A stretch of DNA of 64,000 nt from a virus. The notes under the pieces are model-generated. The model had not been told where the DNA came from. It was given only the letters and a program-made list of their open reading frames with translations, and searched no databases. The translations under genes and the position numbers were made by a program. Shown here piece by piece: positions 10,070 through 63,977 of this stretch (position 1 is the first letter of the stretch; each line of letters begins with the position of its first letter). The stretch covers positions 32,001-96,000 of the IMG/VR virus record IMGVR_UViG_3300027969_000052; one strand, given 5' to 3'.

Positions 10070-10817
10070 CTTTACTCTCTAGCATTTTATCAATCTGGCC
10101 TTGTACGCCCAGTGATATATTATGTATGCCTGCTTGCACCATGCCACTGTATTTCATGGCTAATGATAGCGTTTCGAGCTGATCTTCTTCCGGCATCATT
10201 GAGATGCTTTCCATATTACCAGAACCTACACGACCGTAAGAAATAACATCAATTGCGGCTTGTTTGCCCATACGTGCAATCCAGTACTTGCGTTCTTCGT
10301 CTGGGTTATCCTCAGCATAGTAACGTAAATCTTCTTCAGTTTTAGCAAAATGCTTAACTACATCTAAGAATGCGTTAATTTCGCGTTCGGCTTGAATTAG
10401 TTTGCGTTTATAAATTGTAAGATCGTATTCGTTTTTATCAATGTCTACTTGTAACATTTCTTTTGCGATCTCATCAGTTGCTTCTGCTTGGTCGCGCAAC
10501 CATTTTTTCTTAATTAATTCAGCCTTACGGAGGCTAGTTTTAATTTCTTGATAAGCGTGATAACGAACCTCAAGTTCCATATATGCTTGACGTACTTGGC
10601 GCCATGGAGTTACTTGGCTTCGAGCAACGAAGTTTGCGCATTGGTAAGCAGTCATTCCCATATTGGAATGAATAGCATAATGCATGATTTCTTTTTCAAA
10701 ATCTTCTAGATCATATCGATCTAAAAAGTCTTCGTCTACTCGCTTTGCCCTAGGTTCAGGATGTTTTGAATTAAGTGTATCTTGTATTAATGTTGATTTG
10801 TTAGAATTGGAATCCAT
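9984..10817 (-). CDS. Coiled-coil hypothetical protein of the fibre-associated cassette
   Basis: 277 aa, helical and charged; overlaps both neighbours. Confidence 0.7.
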   Translation of the reverse strand: MDSNSNKSTLIQDTLNSKHPEPRAKRVDEDFLDRYDLEDFEKEIMHYAIHSNMGMTAYQCANFVARSQVTPWRQVRQAYMELEVRYHAYQEIKTSLRKAELIKKKWLRDQAEATDEIAKEMLQVDIDKNEYDLTIYKRKLIQAEREINAFLDVVKHFAKTEEDLRYYAEDNPDEERKYWIARMGKQAAIDVISYGRVGSGNMESISMMPEEDQLETLSLAMKYSGMVQAGIHNISLGVQGQIDKMLESKDERLPDIVKDAENIQLAGQPKINGTTVL

Positions 10818-58660: not shown

Positions 58661-59527
58661 ATGGCAGAAAATACACCAAAAATCAATCCGCTGATGAGCA
58701 TCATGCGTCAGCCCAAAGTCTATATAACGCTTCCTAGCAGGGGAAGATATTACCCAGAGGGCAGTCTTGATCCCACAGTTAATGGAGAATATCCTGTATA
58801 TTCAATGACTGCCAAGGACGAGATAATATTAAAAACTCCCGATGCACTAATGAACGGTCAGGGGTTAGCCGATGTTATTCAAAGTTGTATGCCTAACATT
58901 AAGGATGCGTGGACGGTGCCTGCTATAGATCTAGATGTAATCCTTGTAGCAATTAGATTAGCTACGTATGGTAATACTATGACGTTAACTATCAATCACG
59001 AAACGATGGACGATTCTATGGATTACGAAATCAGCCTCCAGGAAATACTAGAACAACTACAATCAAATACTACTTGGGAAGAACGGTTAGAAATACGGCC
59101 CGACCTTGTAGTATTTTTAAAACCTATTGATTATAAAACACAGACCTACACTCAAATTAGTGAGTTTGAAACCCAACGATTAATGAGTGTTATTAGGGAT
59201 GATACACTTGACGAAGATACTAAATTAGCACAGTTCAAGACGTCATTTGAAAAAATGACTTCAAGAGCAATGGATATCATTGTTAAAGCAGTTCATCGAA
59301 TTGAAAGTGCTAGCGGAACTGTTACTGATCCTGAATTCCTAGAAGAATTTATGAAACAATGCGACAGAGAAGTGTTTGATAAAATCAAAAAACGAATTGC
59401 AGAGTTAAATGAAAAAAATCAGCTCAAACCATTGAGAATCGCTAGCACAGAAGAAATGCTTGCAAAAGGTGCTCCCGAATTTATTCAAGTTCCATTTAGT
59501 TTTGATGCCGCAAATTTTTTCGGATAA
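58661..59527 (+). CDS. Baseplate hub assembly protein / tail assembly chaperone, gp26-like
   Basis: YITLPSRG, SMTAKDE, IDLDVILVAIRLATYG, ends NFFG. Confidence 0.8.
   Translation: MAENTPKINPLMSIMRQPKVYITLPSRGRYYPEGSLDPTVNGEYPVYSMTAKDEIILKTPDALMNGQGLADVIQSCMPNIKDAWTVPAIDLDVILVAIRLATYGNTMTLTINHETMDDSMDYEISLQEILEQLQSNTTWEERLEIRPDLVVFLKPIDYKTQTYTQISEFETQRLMSVIRDDTLDEDTKLAQFKTSFEKMTSRAMDIIVKAVHRIESASGTVTDPEFLEEFMKQCDREVFDKIKKRIAELNEKNQLKPLRIASTEEMLAKGAPEFIQVPFSFDAANFFG
59515..59521 (+). other. Candidate -1 frameshift slippery heptamer T TTT TTC
   Basis: X XXY YYZ pattern one codon before the stop; the -1 frame is open from 59506 to 59751. Confidence 0.6.
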
Positions 59528-59767: not shown

Positions 59768-60847
59768 TTACTCGCCCATATTCTTAATGGGCAGTCCTTT
59801 AATGTTTGGTTCTGGAGCAGTTACATCTTGTTGTCCAGCGGCCTTGTTAAAGGCTATCGTGTTGTCGGCAGGTACTTCTTCATCTGCTTGTGCTGGAGGA
59901 AGCCCAGCATTTTTTCTAATAGAATCTAATTGTTGCTCTGCCGAATCGAGTGATTGTTTTGCATAATCGATCACATCTTGACGACGATCTGATCTGACTA
60001 CATTTACAGTCTGCATTGCGTTGTCAATTGCCTGGCGCCCTTGGGGAACTCCGACCTTTTGTTTGTTAGAAGCAGTAGCATTTGTAGTGTTTACGTTGTT
60101 TTGCGGATCTGTCTCGTTGCTTGTTGGAGCGGCCGCATTTCTAACTGCGGCTGGAGTATCTGCAGTCGGTTCAGCTTGTCCTACTTCCGGGCTCGTCGGT
60201 TGTGCAACATCAGTCGGATCAGCTTGAGATGCTTGAGGTGCTTGTTGCACTTGAGCGCCAGCATGTTGCTGTGTTGCGGCCTTGATAGCTTTGGCAACTA
60301 TATTCATTTTTAAGGTATCGCTCGGAGCTTCAACCAACATGTTTAAAATATTACGGATACTTTCTTGGGCTGTTGGAGCAACTGCGGCTGGACTGGTTCC
60401 GGTTACACCAGGATTTCTGGCATTAGACCACACAGAAGGTTTTTGTTCTGGGGCAGGTTCCTCCATCGGTCCGCCAGCCTCCTGCGGAGTTGGATGTGTA
60501 ATATCATCGTCTGCTGGCTCGTCGACTTGAGTAGATTGAGCGATTACCTGTTTAGCATTATCTAACGGATAACCTTTCTTTTGCAAGTAAGCAAGTAGAC
60601 TTGCTTCTGTAGGTTGCTCACCTGTTTGCCCCAATAGCTTTTGATAACCAGCCATTACTTGATTAGCTAACGCACCTACATTTAGACGTCCTTGTGCTTG
60701 TGCGCTAAAGTTAGGTGTAATACCTGTTGTCTTATTGATTAAGTTACCAGTACCTGCCGCTACTTTGTTTCCTAATTTACTTAGAAAACCCATAGGCTGA
60801 GCTTCGTTAACATTACCAGATTCGTTTACAAGTTCATTAATTTGCAT
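59768..60847 (-). CDS. Low-complexity A/P/Q-rich protein, possible internal head protein (probable start ATG 60847, MQINELVNE)
   Basis: TAAATA at 60868-60873 and GGAG SD precede ATG 60847. Confidence 0.7.
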   Translation of the reverse strand: MQINELVNESGNVNEAQPMGFLSKLGNKVAAGTGNLINKTTGITPNFSAQAQGRLNVGALANQVMAGYQKLLGQTGEQPTEASLLAYLQKKGYPLDNAKQVIAQSTQVDEPADDDITHPTPQEAGGPMEEPAPEQKPSVWSNARNPGVTGTSPAAVAPTAQESIRNILNMLVEAPSDTLKMNIVAKAIKAATQQHAGAQVQQAPQASQADPTDVAQPTSPEVGQAEPTADTPAAVRNAAAPTSNETDPQNNVNTTNATASNKQKVGVPQGRQAIDNAMQTVNVVRSDRRQDVIDYAKQSLDSAEQQLDSIRKNAGLPPAQADEEVPADNTIAFNKAAGQQDVTAPEPNIKGLPIKNMGE

Positions 60848-60880
60848 TTTATAGTCTCCAACAAGGATATTTATGTTATT

Positions 60881-61331
60881 AAATGAGCTAACGCTCATTT
60901 GCTTCTGCGCTTCGCTTGAAGCATTTTTAGTTATCTAATACTACGAAGTAGTTTAACTATTATCTAGATATAATGGTCACACTTTACCCAGGTAACCGGG
61001 TAAAGAAAACTTGGCATTATCTGAGTACGCAAGTCACTTAGCGTTGTAGCATTACTGAGGCGGTCATCCTGTACCCCTAGCTACGTCTTATTATGACGGT
61101 ATGCTATTGTATATACGCTAACACATACAATAACACCGGGGTTTTTCTCCCCTCTTTTAGCTCTTATTCACTCTATTCAAATATCAAAACCGCGGCAGAT
61201 TGCGATCGTCGTCCTGTTAAGGATGGTTGATAAGTGCTCTGTACAGCGCAGAGGCTTCCGTCCCCGTTATTATCCGGTTGTCGCTAGGCACCCGATTTAA
61301 GCCGGTGCGAGCATATCCTGTAAGACTGAGC
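60881..61331 (-). ncRNA. Candidate large structured RNA, family not recognised
   Basis: ~450 nt without a credible gene; many hairpins with GU pairs that work only on the - strand; loop UUAGCG complementary to downstream CGCUAA. Confidence 0.6.
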
Positions 61332-61760
61332 CTAGATTTTGTTGATTATGTGAGAGCCATGGACACGGACTGAGATTTGTCCGTTATAGTAATCTGCTGA
61401 TTCTAATACTTTGCGGTTGAATTGTTCAAGGGCCTCGATGTAAGAGCATACTGCTTTGCTTTTGCAATAATGCAGGATCTCTCGCGTGAATTGTTCTTTG
61501 CCTAATTTTAAAACGTCTGTGTTTAATTCTAAGTTAGATCCGTAATATTCTTGCCAGTCGCTGTCAATTTTACTACGTATTTTCTTTTTCTTCTTGTTGC
61601 CGTTCTTTAACTTTACAGTCTTGTAGGTCGTTTTACTAAACTTTGCTAATTTTTTGCCAATATACATGCGCCCCGTGACGGTGTTAGTGATAAGATAAAC
61701 AAATCCAACACAGTCCTCGGGTAGTTGTTCAATGACAGTACCTTGATAAGTCCAAGACAT
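61332..61760 (-). CDS. Stand-alone GIY-YIG (Seg-like) nuclease domain protein
   Basis: GFVYLITN...YIGKK...YYGSN...FTREIL...E...YYN, with a Lys-rich insert. Confidence 0.8.
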   Translation of the reverse strand: MSWTYQGTVIEQLPEDCVGFVYLITNTVTGRMYIGKKLAKFSKTTYKTVKLKNGNKKKKKIRSKIDSDWQEYYGSNLELNTDVLKLGKEQFTREILHYCKSKAVCSYIEALEQFNRKVLESADYYNGQISVRVHGSHIINKI

Positions 61761-61954
61761 TAAGCAGTCTTGGCTTCCTTGCGGGCATTCTTGGTTGCTG
61801 TGATTTCGTTACGGCGAGCTTTGATTAGCTTGCCTAGCTCTGCTAGAGCTTTGCGTGATCGTGTACCGGCCGCATTGTTGCCGCTTTCAAATTTTGTATC
61901 TTCTGCTTCCCATGCTGTAACAGCATCTTTAATTGCTTGAATTGTTGCGCTCAT
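61760..61954 (-). CDS. Hc1 / histone-H1-like small basic protein
   Basis: GNNAAGTRSRKALAEL matches the GNKAAGTRARK-type motif. Confidence 0.75.
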   Translation of the reverse strand: MSATIQAIKDAVTAWEAEDTKFESGNNAAGTRSRKALAELGKLIKARRNEITATKNARKEAKTA

Positions 61955-62187
61955 TTAGAGACTCCTTTTTGTTTCTTTATTTCTTGCTTACGCTGTGTCT
62001 CTGCTACTTGTAGTTTCTTAGCCACTTCACGCATCTCGGTCATCAGCTGTCGCATCGTACTTAATGTTTTTCGTAAAGCAATCGTTTTTTCTTGAGACCT
62101 TCGAAGAGTCCATGCGGTTTTGATATTGTGATATTGCACAAAAGAATCCATAAACCGTTGATGTAGCTCTTCGTACTTGTTTATCAT
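61951..62187 (-). CDS. Small basic helical protein
   Basis: 78 aa; ATGA overlaps with both neighbours. Confidence 0.65.
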   Translation of the reverse strand: MINKYEELHQRFMDSFVQYHNIKTAWTLRRSQEKTIALRKTLSTMRQLMTEMREVAKKLQVAETQRKQEIKKQKGVSK

Positions 62188-63977
62188 TGCGCCTCTACGT
62201 AGTCGACATCGTTTGAGTAACTGGTAAATCCGTTTTCTTTAATTACGTGCAACACGTTATTCACCCTGCCTACTAACTCATCCTTATGACTGATCAAAAA
62301 GATATTCTTGTTACGCTCTCGCGCCATTTTCTTTAAAATAGCAAGACCTGCTTCTACACCTGCCGCATCCATTCCAGCATCGATTAACTCGTCTATGAAT
62401 AGTAAGTTAACATGTTGATACAAGTTTTCCCACACGTCTCGGAATGCCCAGCTCAATCCTAGAATTAATCTATTTCGTTCGCCTCTGCTCAAATTGTCAA
62501 AGTCTAGTTCTTGCCCTAACTGAGTAATTTGAACAGTGAGATCGTTTTGGAAAACTACAGCATGTGGTAGACCAATTTTATCAATGTAATAGCTCAAGCG
62601 TTTATTTAGGTATGTTAGGTTTTGATCAATAATCTTTTTACGGATAAAACTATCTTTGTTAGTTAACAGCTTATACAAGAACTCTTGATGTTCTTTAATT
62701 CGAGTAAGTTCGTTGATTGTGTCCCAAGTAACTTCTTGAAGGGCTGTTTTCTTTAACTCTTCAATTTGTTCTTCATACGGATTAAACTCTGTAGCCTTAA
62801 GCTCTAGATTTTGTTCGAGACTATCTAAATTATTTTTATGCCCTAGTGCTTCTGCTTCTGTGTCGTAAAAGGTTGCTGGCGGTTTAGGCAAGTTGCCTAT
62901 CTCTTTTAATCCTGTTTGAACTAGATCTAAATCAGCTTTAACCTTATTATAGTACAGGTTGGCTTCTACCAGGTACTTATTTGCCTCAGCAGTCATTTCT
63001 TCGTGCTTATGATCGTGCAACTCTTGAGCACATGCATGGCATGTCTTGTTTGCTAGACTTTCGAGTTCTTTTGTATATTTTACTAGACTTTTTTCTGCTT
63101 GGCTTGTAGCGGCTTCTAAAGTAGCACGTTGTTTAGTTAGCTCTCTTATTTTACTATTACTTTCGTTCCATGCTTTAAGTTGTGCATGGGCGGCCAGCTC
63201 TGTATCGATTTCAACACCAGCTAGCTTCATAATAGCTTTGCCTAGGTTCTCGACATCTAATTGTTGTTTATTATTCCACGCTGAACTTTTAATTCCTAGG
63301 CTATTGATGCTCTTTTGAACGTTTTCGTTAGCTGTTTTTACACCTTCAATTCGGAAATTTTCTGCTGTAATAGCATCTTTTGTTTCCTTCATTTGAATTT
63401 TAAGGTTCTCTGCCTTCTCTGAAAGCAGAGTTATGCCTAATAGTTGCTCAATGATCTCACGTTGATCCGCCGCTTTAAGACTCAAAAAAGGTTCAGTATA
63501 TGTGTTTAATGCAACCAAATGCTTAAACATCATATGGCTCATACCTAGCAATTGATCAATGAATTTTTGTGTTTCGCGGCTATCGCCCTGGCTATCATCT
63601 TCGGCAGTTTCGTCGGTTTTTTGCTCTTGATTATTAATGTACAGTTTAAGGATATTAGGTTTACGACCCCGCTCGATGCGATATCCTACACCGTCTTTCT
63701 CAAACTCAACTGTAACCAACATACCTTTGCCGTTGGTCTTGTTAATTAAGTTTTCTTTTCGAATATTTGTAAGGGCTTGCCCGTATAAAGAATAGCTTAA
63801 TGCGTTAACGATTGTAGTTTTTCCTGTGCCGTTACGGCTTCCGTTATCGTCCCCGCCCAGATCTAGGTTCTCTCCTAGTACCAGCGTAAGATGTTCTTTA
63901 CTAAAATCTACTGCTTGTGTTTGATTGCCAACACTTAAAAAGTTTTTTACAGTAATGTCTTTAATGTTAAATGTCAT
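62184..63977 (-). CDS. gp46: Rad50/SbcC-like recombination endonuclease ATPase subunit
   Basis: KNFLSVGN, NGTGKT Walker A, CHAC zinc hook, LSRGE signature, FIDE Walker B, ISH. Confidence 0.95.
   Translation of the reverse strand: MTFNIKDITVKNFLSVGNQTQAVDFSKEHLTLVLGENLDLGGDDNGSRNGTGKTTIVNALSYSLYGQALTNIRKENLINKTNGKGMLVTVEFEKDGVGYRIERGRKPNILKLYINNQEQKTDETAEDDSQGDSRETQKFIDQLLGMSHMMFKHLVALNTYTEPFLSLKAADQREIIEQLLGITLLSEKAENLKIQMKETKDAITAENFRIEGVKTANENVQKSINSLGIKSSAWNNKQQLDVENLGKAIMKLAGVEIDTELAAHAQLKAWNESNSKIRELTKQRATLEAATSQAEKSLVKYTKELESLANKTCHACAQELHDHKHEEMTAEANKYLVEANLYYNKVKADLDLVQTGLKEIGNLPKPPATFYDTEAEALGHKNNLDSLEQNLELKATEFNPYEEQIEELKKTALQEVTWDTINELTRIKEHQEFLYKLLTNKDSFIRKKIIDQNLTYLNKRLSYYIDKIGLPHAVVFQNDLTVQITQLGQELDFDNLSRGERNRLILGLSWAFRDVWENLYQHVNLLFIDELIDAGMDAAGVEAGLAILKKMARERNKNIFLISHKDELVGRVNNVLHVIKENGFTSYSNDVDYVEAQ

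What the first reader, a model, noticed from the sequence alone, without database searches (positions are those of the whole stretch)
60953..61331. Large pseudoknotted ncRNA candidate immediately downstream of a stand-alone GIY-YIG domain
Seen on the - strand, starting at the GIY-YIG stop codon: GCACCGG/UCGGGUGC, CUCUG/CAGAG, UCC/GGA, GGGG/CCCC (61138-61152), a 15-bp stem with 4 GU pairs (61101-61136) whose loop UUAGCG matches CGCUAA at 61038-61043 (pseudoknot), CGUC/GACG, GUAGC/GCUAC, and AUAAUG/CAUUAU enclosing CUUUACCCGG/CUGGGUAAAG (60982-61005). The GU pairs would be A-C mismatches on the + strand, which argues for RNA-level selection. This is the longest non-coding gap in a dense window. 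Known: Seg-type GIY-YIG homing enzymes normally carry C-terminal DNA-binding modules, whereas this 142-aa protein has only the catalytic domain plus a KLKNGNKKKKKIRSK insert. Inference: possibly a nuclease-RNA ribonucleoprotein, a ribozyme, or a replication-origin RNA.
Basis: partly seen in the sequence, partly recalled or inferred. Interest (0 to 1): 0.75.

Follow-up and report, generated by a model that had tools for sequence, protein, structure and literature searches.

The report
Large phage RNA beside nuclease gene
A roughly 370-base, heavily knotted RNA gene sits right after a small nuclease gene in many freshwater T4-like phages; its first third was already catalogued as an orphan RNA motif, but the full RNA and its two matching "address" segments were not.

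Summary
The structured RNA is real. Window 61322-60952 (- strand) aligns with 62 distinct viral-contig homologues: 74 pairs in 16 helices, four of them pseudoknots, 96.3% of cells paired, 639 double-change cells against 173±13 in shuffles. It is not wholly new: 61313-61179 is a full-length Rfam Polynucleobacter-1 match (RF01718, 84.8 bits), but that model covers only the 5' third. The middle domain shares a 22-nt core with cow-rumen-2 (RF02947) but scores below its threshold. In loci found through the RNA, the same 142-aa SegE-type GIY-YIG gene lies directly upstream in 86 of 89 with upstream sequence. The other 3 carry a PD-(D/E)XK nuclease gene in that slot. Relatives of the protein in cultured phages lack the RNA, so the pairing is common but not obligatory. 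The downstream gene's strand varies, which argues against a 5'-UTR role. Two direct 7-nt segments about 50-60 nt apart are identical in 143 of 144 loci while differing between loci, and no complementary partner was found nearby. Best reading: a stable, probably trans-acting RNA made as the 3' extension of the nuclease transcript. A nuclease-RNA particle is not excluded. Other first readers of this scan noted this stretch on this same genome.

The parts
60952..61322 (-). Conserved core of the large RNA, about 370 nt. The 5' end overlaps or follows the nuclease stop codon.
   Evidence: blastn and nhmmer similarity runs 61322..60952 in 77 of 120 pattern-selected viral loci. Alignment A1 has 63 sequences and 79 invariant columns. 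The conservation profile drops at 61340-61321 and again after 60941.
61179..61313 (-). 5' domain, a full-length match to Rfam Polynucleobacter-1 (RF01718).
   Evidence: cmscan gives 84.8 bits against a gathering score of 37, model positions 1-141 of 141.
61317..61321 (-). 5' leader strand of pseudoknot 1. It pairs with the P3 hairpin loop at 61247-61243 and lies outside the Rfam model.
   Evidence: Columns 5-9 with 93-97: 3 of 5 pairs show changes on both sides (AU:19/GC:17/UA:5 and AU:27/GC:27). 79.8% of cells are paired.
61311..61313 (-). Mini-pseudoknot: 61313-61311 pairs with 61302-61300, which lies in the P1 loop.
   Evidence: helix 2. The middle pair is GC:38/AU:24, with 62 of 63 cells paired.
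61288..61308 (-).
   Evidence: helix 3: all 5 pairs show double changes and 99.7% of cells are paired.
61236..61255 (-).
   Evidence: helix 5: 4 of 6 pairs show double changes.
61179..61235 (-). Outer stem (61235-27 with 61187-79) that encloses the invariant UCC/GGA hairpin and the inner hairpin 61207-02/61193-88.
   Evidence: helices 6-9. Helices 6 and 8 are 100% paired, with 4 of 7 and 3 of 5 pairs showing double changes.
61258..61263 (-). Long-range helix. GGGAYGG of the Rfam domain pairs with CYGCC at 61102-61098, joining the 5' and middle domains.
   Evidence: RNAalifold. helix 4 is 98.1% paired, with one pair showing CG:43/UG:12/UA:5. Support is modest because 2 of the 5 pairs are invariant.
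61138..61151 (-). GGGG/CCCC hairpin.
   Evidence: helix 10: all 3 pairs show double changes.
61030..61136 (-). Middle domain. It holds the long hairpin 61136-61101 with loop UUAGCG, pseudoknot 2 (61119-15 with 61044-40), helix K (61097-93 with 61067-63, also a pseudoknot), J1 (61083-80/61050-47) and J2 (61077-73/61061-57). It resembles cow-rumen-2.
   Evidence: helices 11-15: all 5 pairs of pseudoknot 2, 3 of 5 pairs of K and all 4 pairs of J1 show double changes. Rfam RF02947 scores 20.3 bits (gathering score 66, E 0.4) at 61134-61030. The exact 22-nt core is shared.
61016..61027 (-). Twin segment 1 (n-A-CUC-RGAURA-n), preceded by GUGAC and about 10 nt of spacer.
   Evidence: Identity covariation with 60970-60959: GG:36/AA:26, GG:33/AA:30 and UU:41/AA:16/GG:6. 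The 7-mers are identical in 143 of 144 loci.
60982..61005 (-). 3' hairpin between the twin segments (CUUUACCCGG/CUGGGUAAAG).
   Evidence: helix 16: 8 pairs, 3 with double changes, 93.6% of cells paired.
60959..60970 (-). Twin segment 2 (n-A-UCU-RGAURA-n), preceded by GUGUGAC and about 10 nt of spacer.
   Evidence: Same evidence as twin segment 1.
60941..60953 (-). Small hairpin with a CUUCG-type loop just after twin segment 2. It may mark the 3' end of the RNA.
   Evidence: TTCG is present in the 70 nt after the second segment in 42 of 63 sequences. Read by eye; no covariation count was made.
61332..61760 (-). 142-aa single-domain GIY-YIG protein gene directly upstream.
   Evidence: PF19835 E 2.5e-32, residues 3-129. 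phrog_447 E 8.2e-36. G19-F-V-Y22, Y33-I-G35, R93, E109 and N126 are invariant in 29 sequences. AlphaFold2 model pLDDT 83.6, with the basic insert forming a beta-hairpin over residues 40-66. The best meaningful fold match is the I-TevI catalytic domain 1mk0, probability 0.80, which is weak at E 0.44.
60881..60923 (-). Two further hairpins between the RNA and the next gene. They are probably not part of the RNA. The first (60923-60902) looks like a terminator for + strand transcripts.
   Evidence: A GAGCG..GCGA-type loop motif occurs within 160 nt downstream in 43 of 61 loci. A terminator-like site lies on the + strand at 60909-60922.

Best explanation
This is the gene for a large (about 370 nt) structured non-coding RNA of freshwater T4-like phages. 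Its 5' third is the orphan Rfam motif Polynucleobacter-1, its middle domain is built like cow-rumen-2, and its 3' domain was not described before.

Shown:
- the RNA fold, with four pseudoknots;
- the strand;
- the spread of the RNA across viral contigs;
- its fixed position 8-52 nt behind the stop codon of a recombination-type nuclease gene, usually the 142-aa GIY-YIG and rarely a PD-(D/E)XK enzyme;
- two single-stranded 7-12-nt segments that are kept identical to each other while differing between phages.

Inferred: the RNA has no promoter of its own. It is made as the 3' extension of the nuclease transcript and is kept, perhaps after processing, as a stable RNA. It then acts in trans, and its two identical segments engage the same kind of partner twice, either a nucleic acid not encoded nearby or a paired factor. 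The nuclease is most likely an ordinary DNA enzyme of the recombination module, and the RNA does not serve as its guide.
For: Fold: 74 pairs in 16 helices, 96.3% of cells paired against 83.4±0.3 in shuffles. 47 pairs and 639 cells show double changes against 35.2±2.3 and 172.6±13.4 (0 of 500 shuffles reach these). Controls with the partner slid by 1-3 columns give 42-71 double-change cells.

Strand: 448 G-U cells against 39 A-C cells.

Family: RF01718 at 84.8 bits, full length.

Extent: similarity spans 61322-60952 in 77 of 120 pattern-selected viral loci and in 15 of 70 further loci. There is one copy in the window's own 129-kb record.

Viral origin: 0 of 120 matches to the same pattern in cellular genomes are homologues.

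Context: the GIY-YIG gene is directly upstream on the same strand in 86 of 89 RNA-selected loci with upstream sequence. The gap is -11 to +49 nt, except in 6 loci with an inserted ORF. The other 3 loci have PF24608 PDDEXK_15 there (E 2.5e-25 and 2.6e-29 for the two scanned).

Downstream gene: it lies on either strand, so the RNA goes with the upstream gene.

Transcription: metatranscriptome contigs from two runs of two studies bridge the stop codon into the RNA (61273-61423 and 61161-61374). This is weak evidence.

Twin segments: identical in 143 of 144 loci across 9 variants, and also identical in divergent forms of the RNA. No third covarying column was found in the gene, the RNA or 160 nt downstream. 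No complement was found within ±200 nt or in whole loci, where there were 13 stray hits against 16 in the control.
Against: Nothing shows a mature, stable RNA or its ends. Only assembled contigs from RNA libraries could be laid, and DNA carry-over is not excluded. No intrinsic terminator follows the RNA on its own strand, so it could also continue into the next gene where that gene is co-oriented. The trans partner is hypothetical and none was found. That both alternative upstream genes are nucleases could point to a functional link and not mere synteny. All loci come from one phage clade, so shared gene order alone may explain much of the adjacency. A sigma-70-like match inside the GIY gene (61429-61400) exists, but such matches are no more frequent than chance (5 found, 3.7 expected).
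Confidence: 0.5

Rival explanations
1. Nuclease-RNA particle. The RNA binds the upstream nuclease (GIY-YIG, or PD-(D/E)XK where that replaces it), and its two variable identical segments direct or restrain cutting, as a guide, a decoy or an inhibitor.
For: The gene and the RNA are adjacent in 86 of 89 loci and in 67 of 80 loci selected by the protein. Both alternative upstream genes encode nucleases. The RNA combines a conserved scaffold with short variable segments. The protein has a conserved lysine-rich beta-hairpin and no DNA-binding domain.
Against: Relatives of the protein in Melnitz, P-HM1, Moby and phiN3 have no such RNA next to them. Of 78 close relatives with room downstream, 7 show no RNA of this type within 1.5 kb, and their proteins look the same as the rest. 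The RNA persists behind a non-homologous nuclease. The twin segments differ between loci with 99.3% identical protein. No matching target was found. No RNA-guided GIY-YIG enzyme is known to me (recalled).
Confidence: 0.13
2. Cis-acting 3' UTR. The fold protects the nuclease mRNA from 3' exonucleases or couples its translation and decay, and has no role of its own.
For: The RNA starts at or within about 50 nt of the stop codon. In some loci the stop codon is part of the 5' pseudoknot strand. Contigs bridge the junction.
Against: 79 invariant columns and four pseudoknots are far more than a protective hairpin needs. The identity between the twin segments has no use in this model. The RNA is kept when the upstream gene is replaced or separated from it by an inserted ORF.
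Confidence: 0.13
3. Ribozyme. The RNA cleaves itself out of the transcript, or cuts at the two identical segments and releases the hairpin between them.
For: Its size, pseudoknots and sequence conservation are in the range of known ribozymes. Two identical sites would suit one active site cutting twice.
Against: No Rfam ribozyme or intron family matches at E up to 10 over 60700-61500. There are no flanking exons: the upstream stop codon and the next start codon are those of ordinary genes. The RNA-library contigs laid show no joint at the twin segments (contigs only).
Confidence: 0.08
4. Cis-regulatory 5' UTR of the downstream gene. Weinberg 2010 lists Polynucleobacter-1 as a tentative cis-regulatory motif.
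For: The table in PMC2864571 carries a cis-regulatory mark for this motif (passage read). In the window and in some loci the next gene is co-oriented.
Against: In about half of the loci the next gene lies on the opposite strand. The element follows the upstream gene at a fixed short distance.
Confidence: 0.05
5. DNA-level element: a replication origin, iterons, a recombination site or a homing target. Here the twin direct repeats would be protein-binding sites on DNA.
For: Direct repeats that stay identical within a genome are typical of iterons or of the ends of a recombination site.
Against: Strand-specific wobble: 448 G-U cells against 39 A-C cells. Compensatory changes occur in 47 of 74 pairs, including long-range pairs. 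No third repeat is conserved. The motif is not enriched in the window (2 matches, 1.6 expected).
Confidence: 0.05

Closest known systems
Polynucleobacter-1 RNA motif (Rfam RF01718; Weinberg et al. 2010, PMC2864571)
   Same: Window 61313-61179 matches the whole model at 84.8 bits. The habitat agrees: the paper's table says fresh water/estuary, and the runs that hold the window's DNA are freshwater, lake and river metagenomes.
   Different: The Rfam model has 141 positions, whereas the conserved RNA has about 370. The model lacks the 5' leader pseudoknot, the long-range helix to 61102-61098, and the whole middle and 3' domains. The table lists it as tentatively cis-regulatory and from Burkholderiales. 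Here it is phage-borne and tied to the upstream gene. The paper's supplement may describe gene context, but supplements were closed.
cow-rumen-2 RNA motif (Rfam RF02947)
   Same: It shares a hairpin with a UUAGC loop, a GCCGCC-type strand and the exact core TAGC-N1-2-GG-NNN-ACAGGATGACC. The two models detect each other colinearly and at full length: RF02947 on the window scores 20.3 bits, and my model R1 scores 14-16 bits on 10 of 55 cow-rumen-2 loci, all at the right site.
   Different: Both scores are below significance (gathering score 66; E 0.23-0.84). cow-rumen-2 loci have no GIY-YIG gene and no Polynucleobacter-1 domain. They have their own conserved flanks and can occur four times in one jumbo contig.
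Large ornate phage-associated RNAs (GOLLD, ROOL)
   Same: These too are large, pseudoknotted, phage-borne RNAs of unknown function (PMC5737381, passages read). PMC12286853, of which I saw only the search listing and the start of the abstract, reports that they form RNA-only homo-oligomers.
   Different: There is no sequence or Rfam relation. This RNA is shorter, no tRNA gene lies near it, and it sits behind a nuclease gene. Whether it oligomerises is untested.
Guide-RNA nucleases of mobile elements (IscB/TnpB with omega RNA)
   Same: A structured RNA of a few hundred nt is encoded next to a small nuclease gene, and a conserved scaffold carries short variable segments.
   Different: The nuclease fold differs (GIY-YIG or PD-(D/E)XK). 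No transposon ends were looked for. There are two identical variable segments of 7-9 nt, not one longer guide at an RNA end. The protein occurs without the RNA. The features of omega RNA systems given here are recalled.
Paired nut sites of lambdoid phages
   Same: Each nut site is a linear box followed by a hairpin. The two copies are alike within a phage and differ between phages, because both bind the same fast-evolving partner. This is a precedent for identity covariation (recalled).
   Different: Here the two modules lie 50-60 nt apart inside one RNA. No N-like protein was identified, and no promoter or terminator layout fits.

Membership tests
Rfam RF01718 Polynucleobacter-1 | Covariance-model score at or above the curated gathering score (37 bits), over the whole model | tested here: met
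   84.8 bits, model positions 1-141 of 141, window 61313-61179 on the - strand.
Rfam RF01718 Polynucleobacter-1 | The model's helices are kept by compensatory changes in homologues | tested here: met
   helices 3, 5, 6 and 8 are 96-100% paired and have 3-5 pairs each with double changes. The model's second hairpin was not counted because MAFFT aligned it poorly.
Rfam RF01718 Polynucleobacter-1 | Lies in the 5' UTR of a downstream gene (tentative cis-regulatory label in the 2010 table) | tested here: not met
   The downstream gene lies on either strand. This is a context label and not part of the model, so membership stands.
Rfam RF02947 cow-rumen-2 | Covariance-model score at or above the gathering score (66 bits) | tested here: not met
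   20.3 bits, E 0.4 over 801 nt. True members score 82-113 bits. It resembles the family but is not a member.
Pfam PF19835 SegE_GIY-YIG (GIY-YIG nuclease domain) | Profile score above the curated cut-off (25 bits), and GIY / YIG / Arg / Glu / Asn motifs present | tested here: met
   112.1 bits, E 2.5e-32. G19-F-V-Y22, Y33-I-G35, R93, E109 and N126 are invariant in 29 sequences. The catalytic roles of these residues are recalled and were not assayed.
Free-standing Seg-type homing endonuclease | Sporadic presence among related genomes, plus a C-terminal DNA-binding module | tested here: not met
   The gene is present in 86 of 89 RNA loci, with 570 relatives in viral contigs and 82% mean column identity. 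The domain fills residues 3-129 of 142. The defining features are recalled.
Group I / group II introns and known self-cleaving ribozymes (Rfam) | A match to any such family | tested here: not met
   At E up to 10 over 60700-61500 the only matches are RF01718, RF02947, STnc350 and psRNA6.
tRNA / tmRNA | Detected by ARAGORN | tested here: not met
   No gene was found in the whole window.
Guide-RNA nuclease systems (OMEGA-like) | The RNA binds the adjacent nuclease and its variable segment pairs with the target | not testable with these tools
   Only context could be tested. Adjacency is frequent but not obligatory, and no target was found.

The most novel reading that the evidence does not exclude
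The RNA is the RNA subunit of a new kind of phage nuclease particle. A conserved, pseudoknotted scaffold presents two identical short specificity segments that pair with a repeated or doubled target. In this way it directs or gates a small domain-only nuclease (GIY-YIG, interchangeable with PD-(D/E)XK) encoded just upstream. This would be the first RNA-programmed GIY-YIG enzyme.
Probability: 0.12. Interest if true: 0.92.

Novelty: new variant of a known kind. Interest (0 to 1): 0.66.

Why it matters
An orphan RNA motif catalogued in 2010 turns out to be one third of a much larger phage RNA, found here in well over a hundred viral contigs from fresh water. The complexity of the fold (four pseudoknots, 79 invariant positions) is in the range of ribozymes and of the RNA parts of ribonucleoproteins.

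Three points make it directly testable:
- It always follows a nuclease gene of the recombination module.
- It shares a structural core with a second orphan motif, cow-rumen-2. That motif also appears to be part of a longer RNA, which hints at a wider class of phage RNAs built from shared modules.
- It carries two segments that are kept identical to each other while drifting between phages. I know of few precedents for this pattern of covariation. It implies a common partner or a copying process.

Finding that partner would probably reveal the function. The Rfam models and the 'cis-regulatory' label could also be corrected.

Tried and rejected
Approaches that led nowhere or were rejected:

- Single-sequence folding energy is not significant on either strand.
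- A DNA search of the phage collection with 60700-61800 found no match.
- A PDB sequence search with the protein found nothing significant. Foldseek gave only a weak I-TevI match.
- The pattern scan of cellular genomes gave 0 true homologues among 120 stretches.
- I did not locate the Polynucleobacter copy behind the Rfam name.
- No cis partner for the twin segments was found: no complementary change in the L053 clade or in L033, no consistent complement within ±200 nt (the best site appears in 17 of 63 sequences and only through G-U pairs), no third covarying column, and no target within whole loci.
- A third repeat seen in the window (60940-60930) is not conserved.
- The motif is not a genome-wide signal: 2 matches against 1.6 expected.
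- Coding readings of the twin segments fail. The spacing is not in frame (mod 3 gives 19/26/18). Six-codon mini-ORFs of the form RUG...URA are present in only 27 of 63 (segment 1) and 21 of 63 (segment 2), and there is no ORF at all in 17 of 63 for each segment. A bypass of the T4 gene-60 type is therefore rejected.
- CsrA-type GGA sites do not fit, because 26 of 63 sequences have AGA. A palindromic kissing contact does not fit the GCAU and GAAU variants. Both were judged by eye.
- Complementarity between the 3' hairpin and the twin segments in the window is not kept in L052 (by eye).
- Link to the Hc1-like neighbour: only 5 hits among the neighbour ORFs of 78 loci, the window's own ORF included.
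- The ORFs inserted between the GIY gene and the RNA (257-324 aa) have no credible Pfam family and no PHROG family.
- Sequencing runs: only contigs could be laid. Parts without cover, and the small shares in X16-X20, say nothing. No ends or levels can be read from them.
- Complex prediction was not used, because it takes proteins only.
- Supplements of Weinberg 2010 and 2017 were closed. They may hold context notes on both motifs.
Full report
WHAT IS THERE. The window is part of a 128,967-base IMG/VR virus record, which CheckV rates as 37% complete. Several genes around the finding are of the T4 type:
- an SMC/AAA_23 protein of the gp46 kind (62184-63977);
- a T4_baseplate protein (58661-59527);

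On the - strand, a 142-aa ORF (61760-61332) is a single SegE-type GIY-YIG domain (PF19835, E 2.5e-32, residues 3-129). It is followed by 433 nt without an ORF. That is the second-longest such gap in the window, not the longest.

IS IT AN RNA? Folding the single sequence says nothing (z -0.68 on the - strand and -0.66 on the + strand). Comparison with other sequences decides the matter.

I built a pattern from the conserved core and scanned viral contigs with it. Of these, 77 are homologous to window 61322-60952 by nhmmer, and 68 are full length, giving 62 distinct sequences. The MAFFT alignment of these 62 with the window (A1, 63 rows) has 79 invariant columns.

I derived a structure from RNAalifold and from my own covariation and mutual-information scans. 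I then counted it on A1:
- 74 pairs in 16 helices, with 96.3% of cells forming standard pairs, against 83.4±0.3 in shuffles.
- 47 pairs and 639 cells carry changes on both sides, against 35.2±2.3 and 172.6±13.4. None of 500 shuffles reaches either value.
- When the 3' partners are slid by 1-3 columns, only 36-48% of cells pair and there are only 42-71 double-change cells.

The structure was derived from this same alignment, which favours it somewhat. The margin is nevertheless very large. G-U cells outnumber A-C cells by 448 to 39, which fixes the strand.

Four pseudoknots are supported:
- the 5' leader 61321-17 with the P3 loop 61247-43;
- a 3-bp contact of 61313-11 with the P1 loop;
- 61097-93 with 61067-63.

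One is invariant, one (CGUC/GACG) is compatible but competes with better-supported pairs, and one (AUAAUG/CAUUAU) is not conserved.

WHAT IS KNOWN. Rfam matches 61313-61179 to Polynucleobacter-1 (RF01718) at 84.8 bits against a gathering score of 37, over the whole model. So the 5' third is a known orphan motif from Weinberg et al. 2010. Their table lists it as a tentative RNA, tentatively cis-regulatory, from Burkholderiales and fresh water/estuary (PMC2864571, passages read). In the paper library, the family name or accession occurs only in that paper.

The model does not include several parts that are conserved and covarying here:
- the leader pseudoknot;
- the long-range helix from GGGAYGG (61263-58) to 61102-61098;
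- the middle domain;
- the 3' domain.

The middle domain (61134-61030) gives a weak, full-length, colinear match to cow-rumen-2 (RF02947): 20.3 bits against a gathering score of 66, E 0.4. A 22-nt core pattern common to both retrieved 71 viral stretches, 70 of them new. Fifteen of the new loci hold the large RNA. The other 55 do not. Of 14 of those 55 that I tested, 12 are true cow-rumen-2 RNAs (82-113 bits). A covariance model of my middle domain (R1) finds 10 of the 55 cow-rumen-2 loci at E of 1 or less. All ten hits are full length and at the right place, but they score only 14-16 bits. I read this as a shared structural module, and possibly distant homology. It is not membership.

GENE CONTEXT. 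I counted 92 loci that were found through the RNA (77 plus 15).
- In 86, a homologue of the window's GIY-YIG protein (54-99% identical) lies directly upstream on the same strand.
- In 3, the RNA lies at the contig edge.
- In 3 (L018, L301, L307), a different gene sits upstream. That gene is a PD-(D/E)XK endonuclease: PF24608 at E 2.6e-29 and 2.5e-25 for the two I scanned, and phrog_244, labelled a 'RusA-like Holliday junction resolvase'.

The three records with the PD-(D/E)XK gene hold no GIY-YIG homologue, and the window's record holds no PF24608. All of these records are fragments.

The gap from stop codon to RNA is -11 to +49 nt. The exception is 6 loci in which an unannotatable ORF of 257-324 aa is inserted. 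The gene after the RNA lies on either strand. The Hc1-like gene upstream of the GIY gene is shared by few loci: 5 hits, the window's own included.

I also selected loci through the protein. There are 570 relatives, and the best 80 (69-99% identical) were kept. Of these 80:
- 71 have the RNA downstream, 67 of them within 8-52 nt;
- 2 have no room downstream;
- 7 show no nhmmer hit within 1.5 kb.

Three of those seven (L340, L351, L384) do carry a divergent relative of the RNA, which lies behind an extra 92-93-aa ORF. For the other four, the fetched flank may be too short.

More distant relatives of the protein are common in cultured T4-like phages: 460 records, all below 60% identity. They include 339 Synechococcus phages, Methylophilales phage Melnitz (Kyanoviridae), Stenotrophomonas, Sinorhizobium and Acidovorax phages. 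These genes are often labelled 'NAD synthetase', which looks like an inherited misnomer. In the four I fetched, neither nhmmer nor Rfam finds the RNA.

The protein family is strongly conserved: 82% mean column identity, with the GIY, YIG, Arg, Glu and Asn positions and the lysine-rich insert invariant. An AlphaFold2 model (pLDDT 83.6) places the insert in a beta-hairpin. The nearest meaningful solved fold is the I-TevI catalytic domain, though the match is weak.

Taken together, this is a conserved enzyme of the replication and recombination module, not a sporadic homing gene. It is older and more widespread than the RNA.

THE TWIN SEGMENTS. In the 3' domain there are two modules. Each has GUGAC, about 10 nt of spacer, a short segment and then a hairpin. 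The short segments (61027-61016 and 60970-60959) vary between loci yet stay the same as each other.
- The column pairs read GG:36/AA:26, GG:33/AA:30 and UU:41/AA:16/GG:6.
- 164 loci have the RNA. Some contigs were fetched twice by different scans.
- The two 7-mers could be parsed in 144 of these and are identical in 143, across nine variants.
- Most of the unparsed loci are cut by contig ends.
- The divergent ones keep the rule with quite different sequences, for example a GGUCAAGU pair in L395 and an ACAUAAA pair in L340.
- The segments flip together between loci whose GIY proteins are 99.3% identical (L041 against L096).

I found no complementary partner in the RNA, in the GIY gene, in 160-200 nt of flank or in whole loci. 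Coding explanations fail. This remains unexplained. The readings I consider are, in order of preference:
- pairing of both segments with one kind of trans partner;
- two sites for one co-evolving factor;
- an unusual parallel contact between the two segments.

I regard the first as the most economical.

EXPRESSION. Runs that hold the stretch are freshwater, lake and river metagenomes. Six RNA libraries hold parts of it. When laid (contigs only), two libraries from two studies give contigs that cross the GIY stop codon into the RNA (61273-61423 and 61161-61374), and one covers most of the RNA in pieces. This is compatible with co-transcription, but DNA carry-over cannot be excluded. No intrinsic terminator follows the RNA on its own strand. 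The hairpin at 60909-60922 reads as a terminator for the opposite strand.

VERDICT. Its 5' third was already known, so the finding is not categorically new. Three things appear to be undescribed in the papers I could search: the full 370-nt architecture, its phage origin with a fixed place behind a nuclease gene, and the self-matching twin segments.

I commit to a stable RNA that is co-transcribed with the nuclease gene and acts in trans through the twin segments (about 0.5). A nuclease-RNA particle remains the most interesting rival (about 0.12-0.13). A pure 3'-UTR role, a ribozyme, a 5'-UTR role and a DNA-level element follow.

Noticed in passing
L246-L315 (cow-rumen-2 loci, e.g. L246:11860-12400): The 106-nt Rfam cow-rumen-2 motif sits in an intergenic region of about 430-450 nt. 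About 200 nt upstream and 130 nt downstream of it are non-coding. These flanks hold a promoter-like TTtaCa/TATatT, a conserved 5' block and a 3' hairpin. cow-rumen-2 is therefore probably also only the core of a longer RNA of about 300 nt.
   Followed up: partly
L285, L304, L306, L311: One 415,750-base viral contig carries four separate matches to the cow-rumen-2 core pattern, so this RNA occurs in multiple copies in a jumbo phage.
   Followed up: no
L340:2210-2660; L384:2215-2640: This is a divergent form of the large RNA that nhmmer and my covariance model both miss. It lies behind an extra 92-93-aa ORF after the GIY-YIG gene. It keeps the 3' twin-segment domain and the CUUCG hairpin, with different but again self-identical segments.
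   Followed up: partly
L018:3954-4481; L307:5588-6166; L301: In three loci a PD-(D/E)XK endonuclease gene (PF24608) occupies the slot of the GIY-YIG gene directly upstream of the RNA. This looks like non-orthologous displacement between two nuclease folds.
   Followed up: partly
window 60881-60923: Two hairpins lie after the RNA. The first has a GAGCG..GCGA-type loop, which is conserved within 160 nt downstream in 43 of 61 loci, and it reads as a terminator for the + strand. The second overlaps the first ATG of the listed 376-aa ORF. The true start of that gene is therefore probably the ATG at 60847, as the N-termini of homologous downstream genes suggest.
   Followed up: partly
window 10070-10547: This is the longest ORF-free gap of the window (478 nt). 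It has no Rfam match at gathering score and no tRNA.
   Followed up: no
L085:9301-9733, L093:1769-2199, L010:4997-5426: In some homologues the loop between the J1 strands carries an insertion of 40-50 nt made of TATAG-containing repeats. This site tolerates variable extensions.
   Followed up: no
GenBank phage records; phrog_447: This GIY-YIG family is widely annotated as 'NAD synthetase' in cyanophage and other T4-like phage records and in PHROGs. That conflicts with its clear match to the GIY-YIG domain.
   Followed up: no
L015:10375-11145, L037:1262-2110, L051:10623-11399, L059:5690-6487, L097:204-1175: ORFs of 257-324 aa are inserted between the GIY-YIG gene and the RNA in a few loci. They have no credible Pfam match and no PHROG match.
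   Followed up: partly
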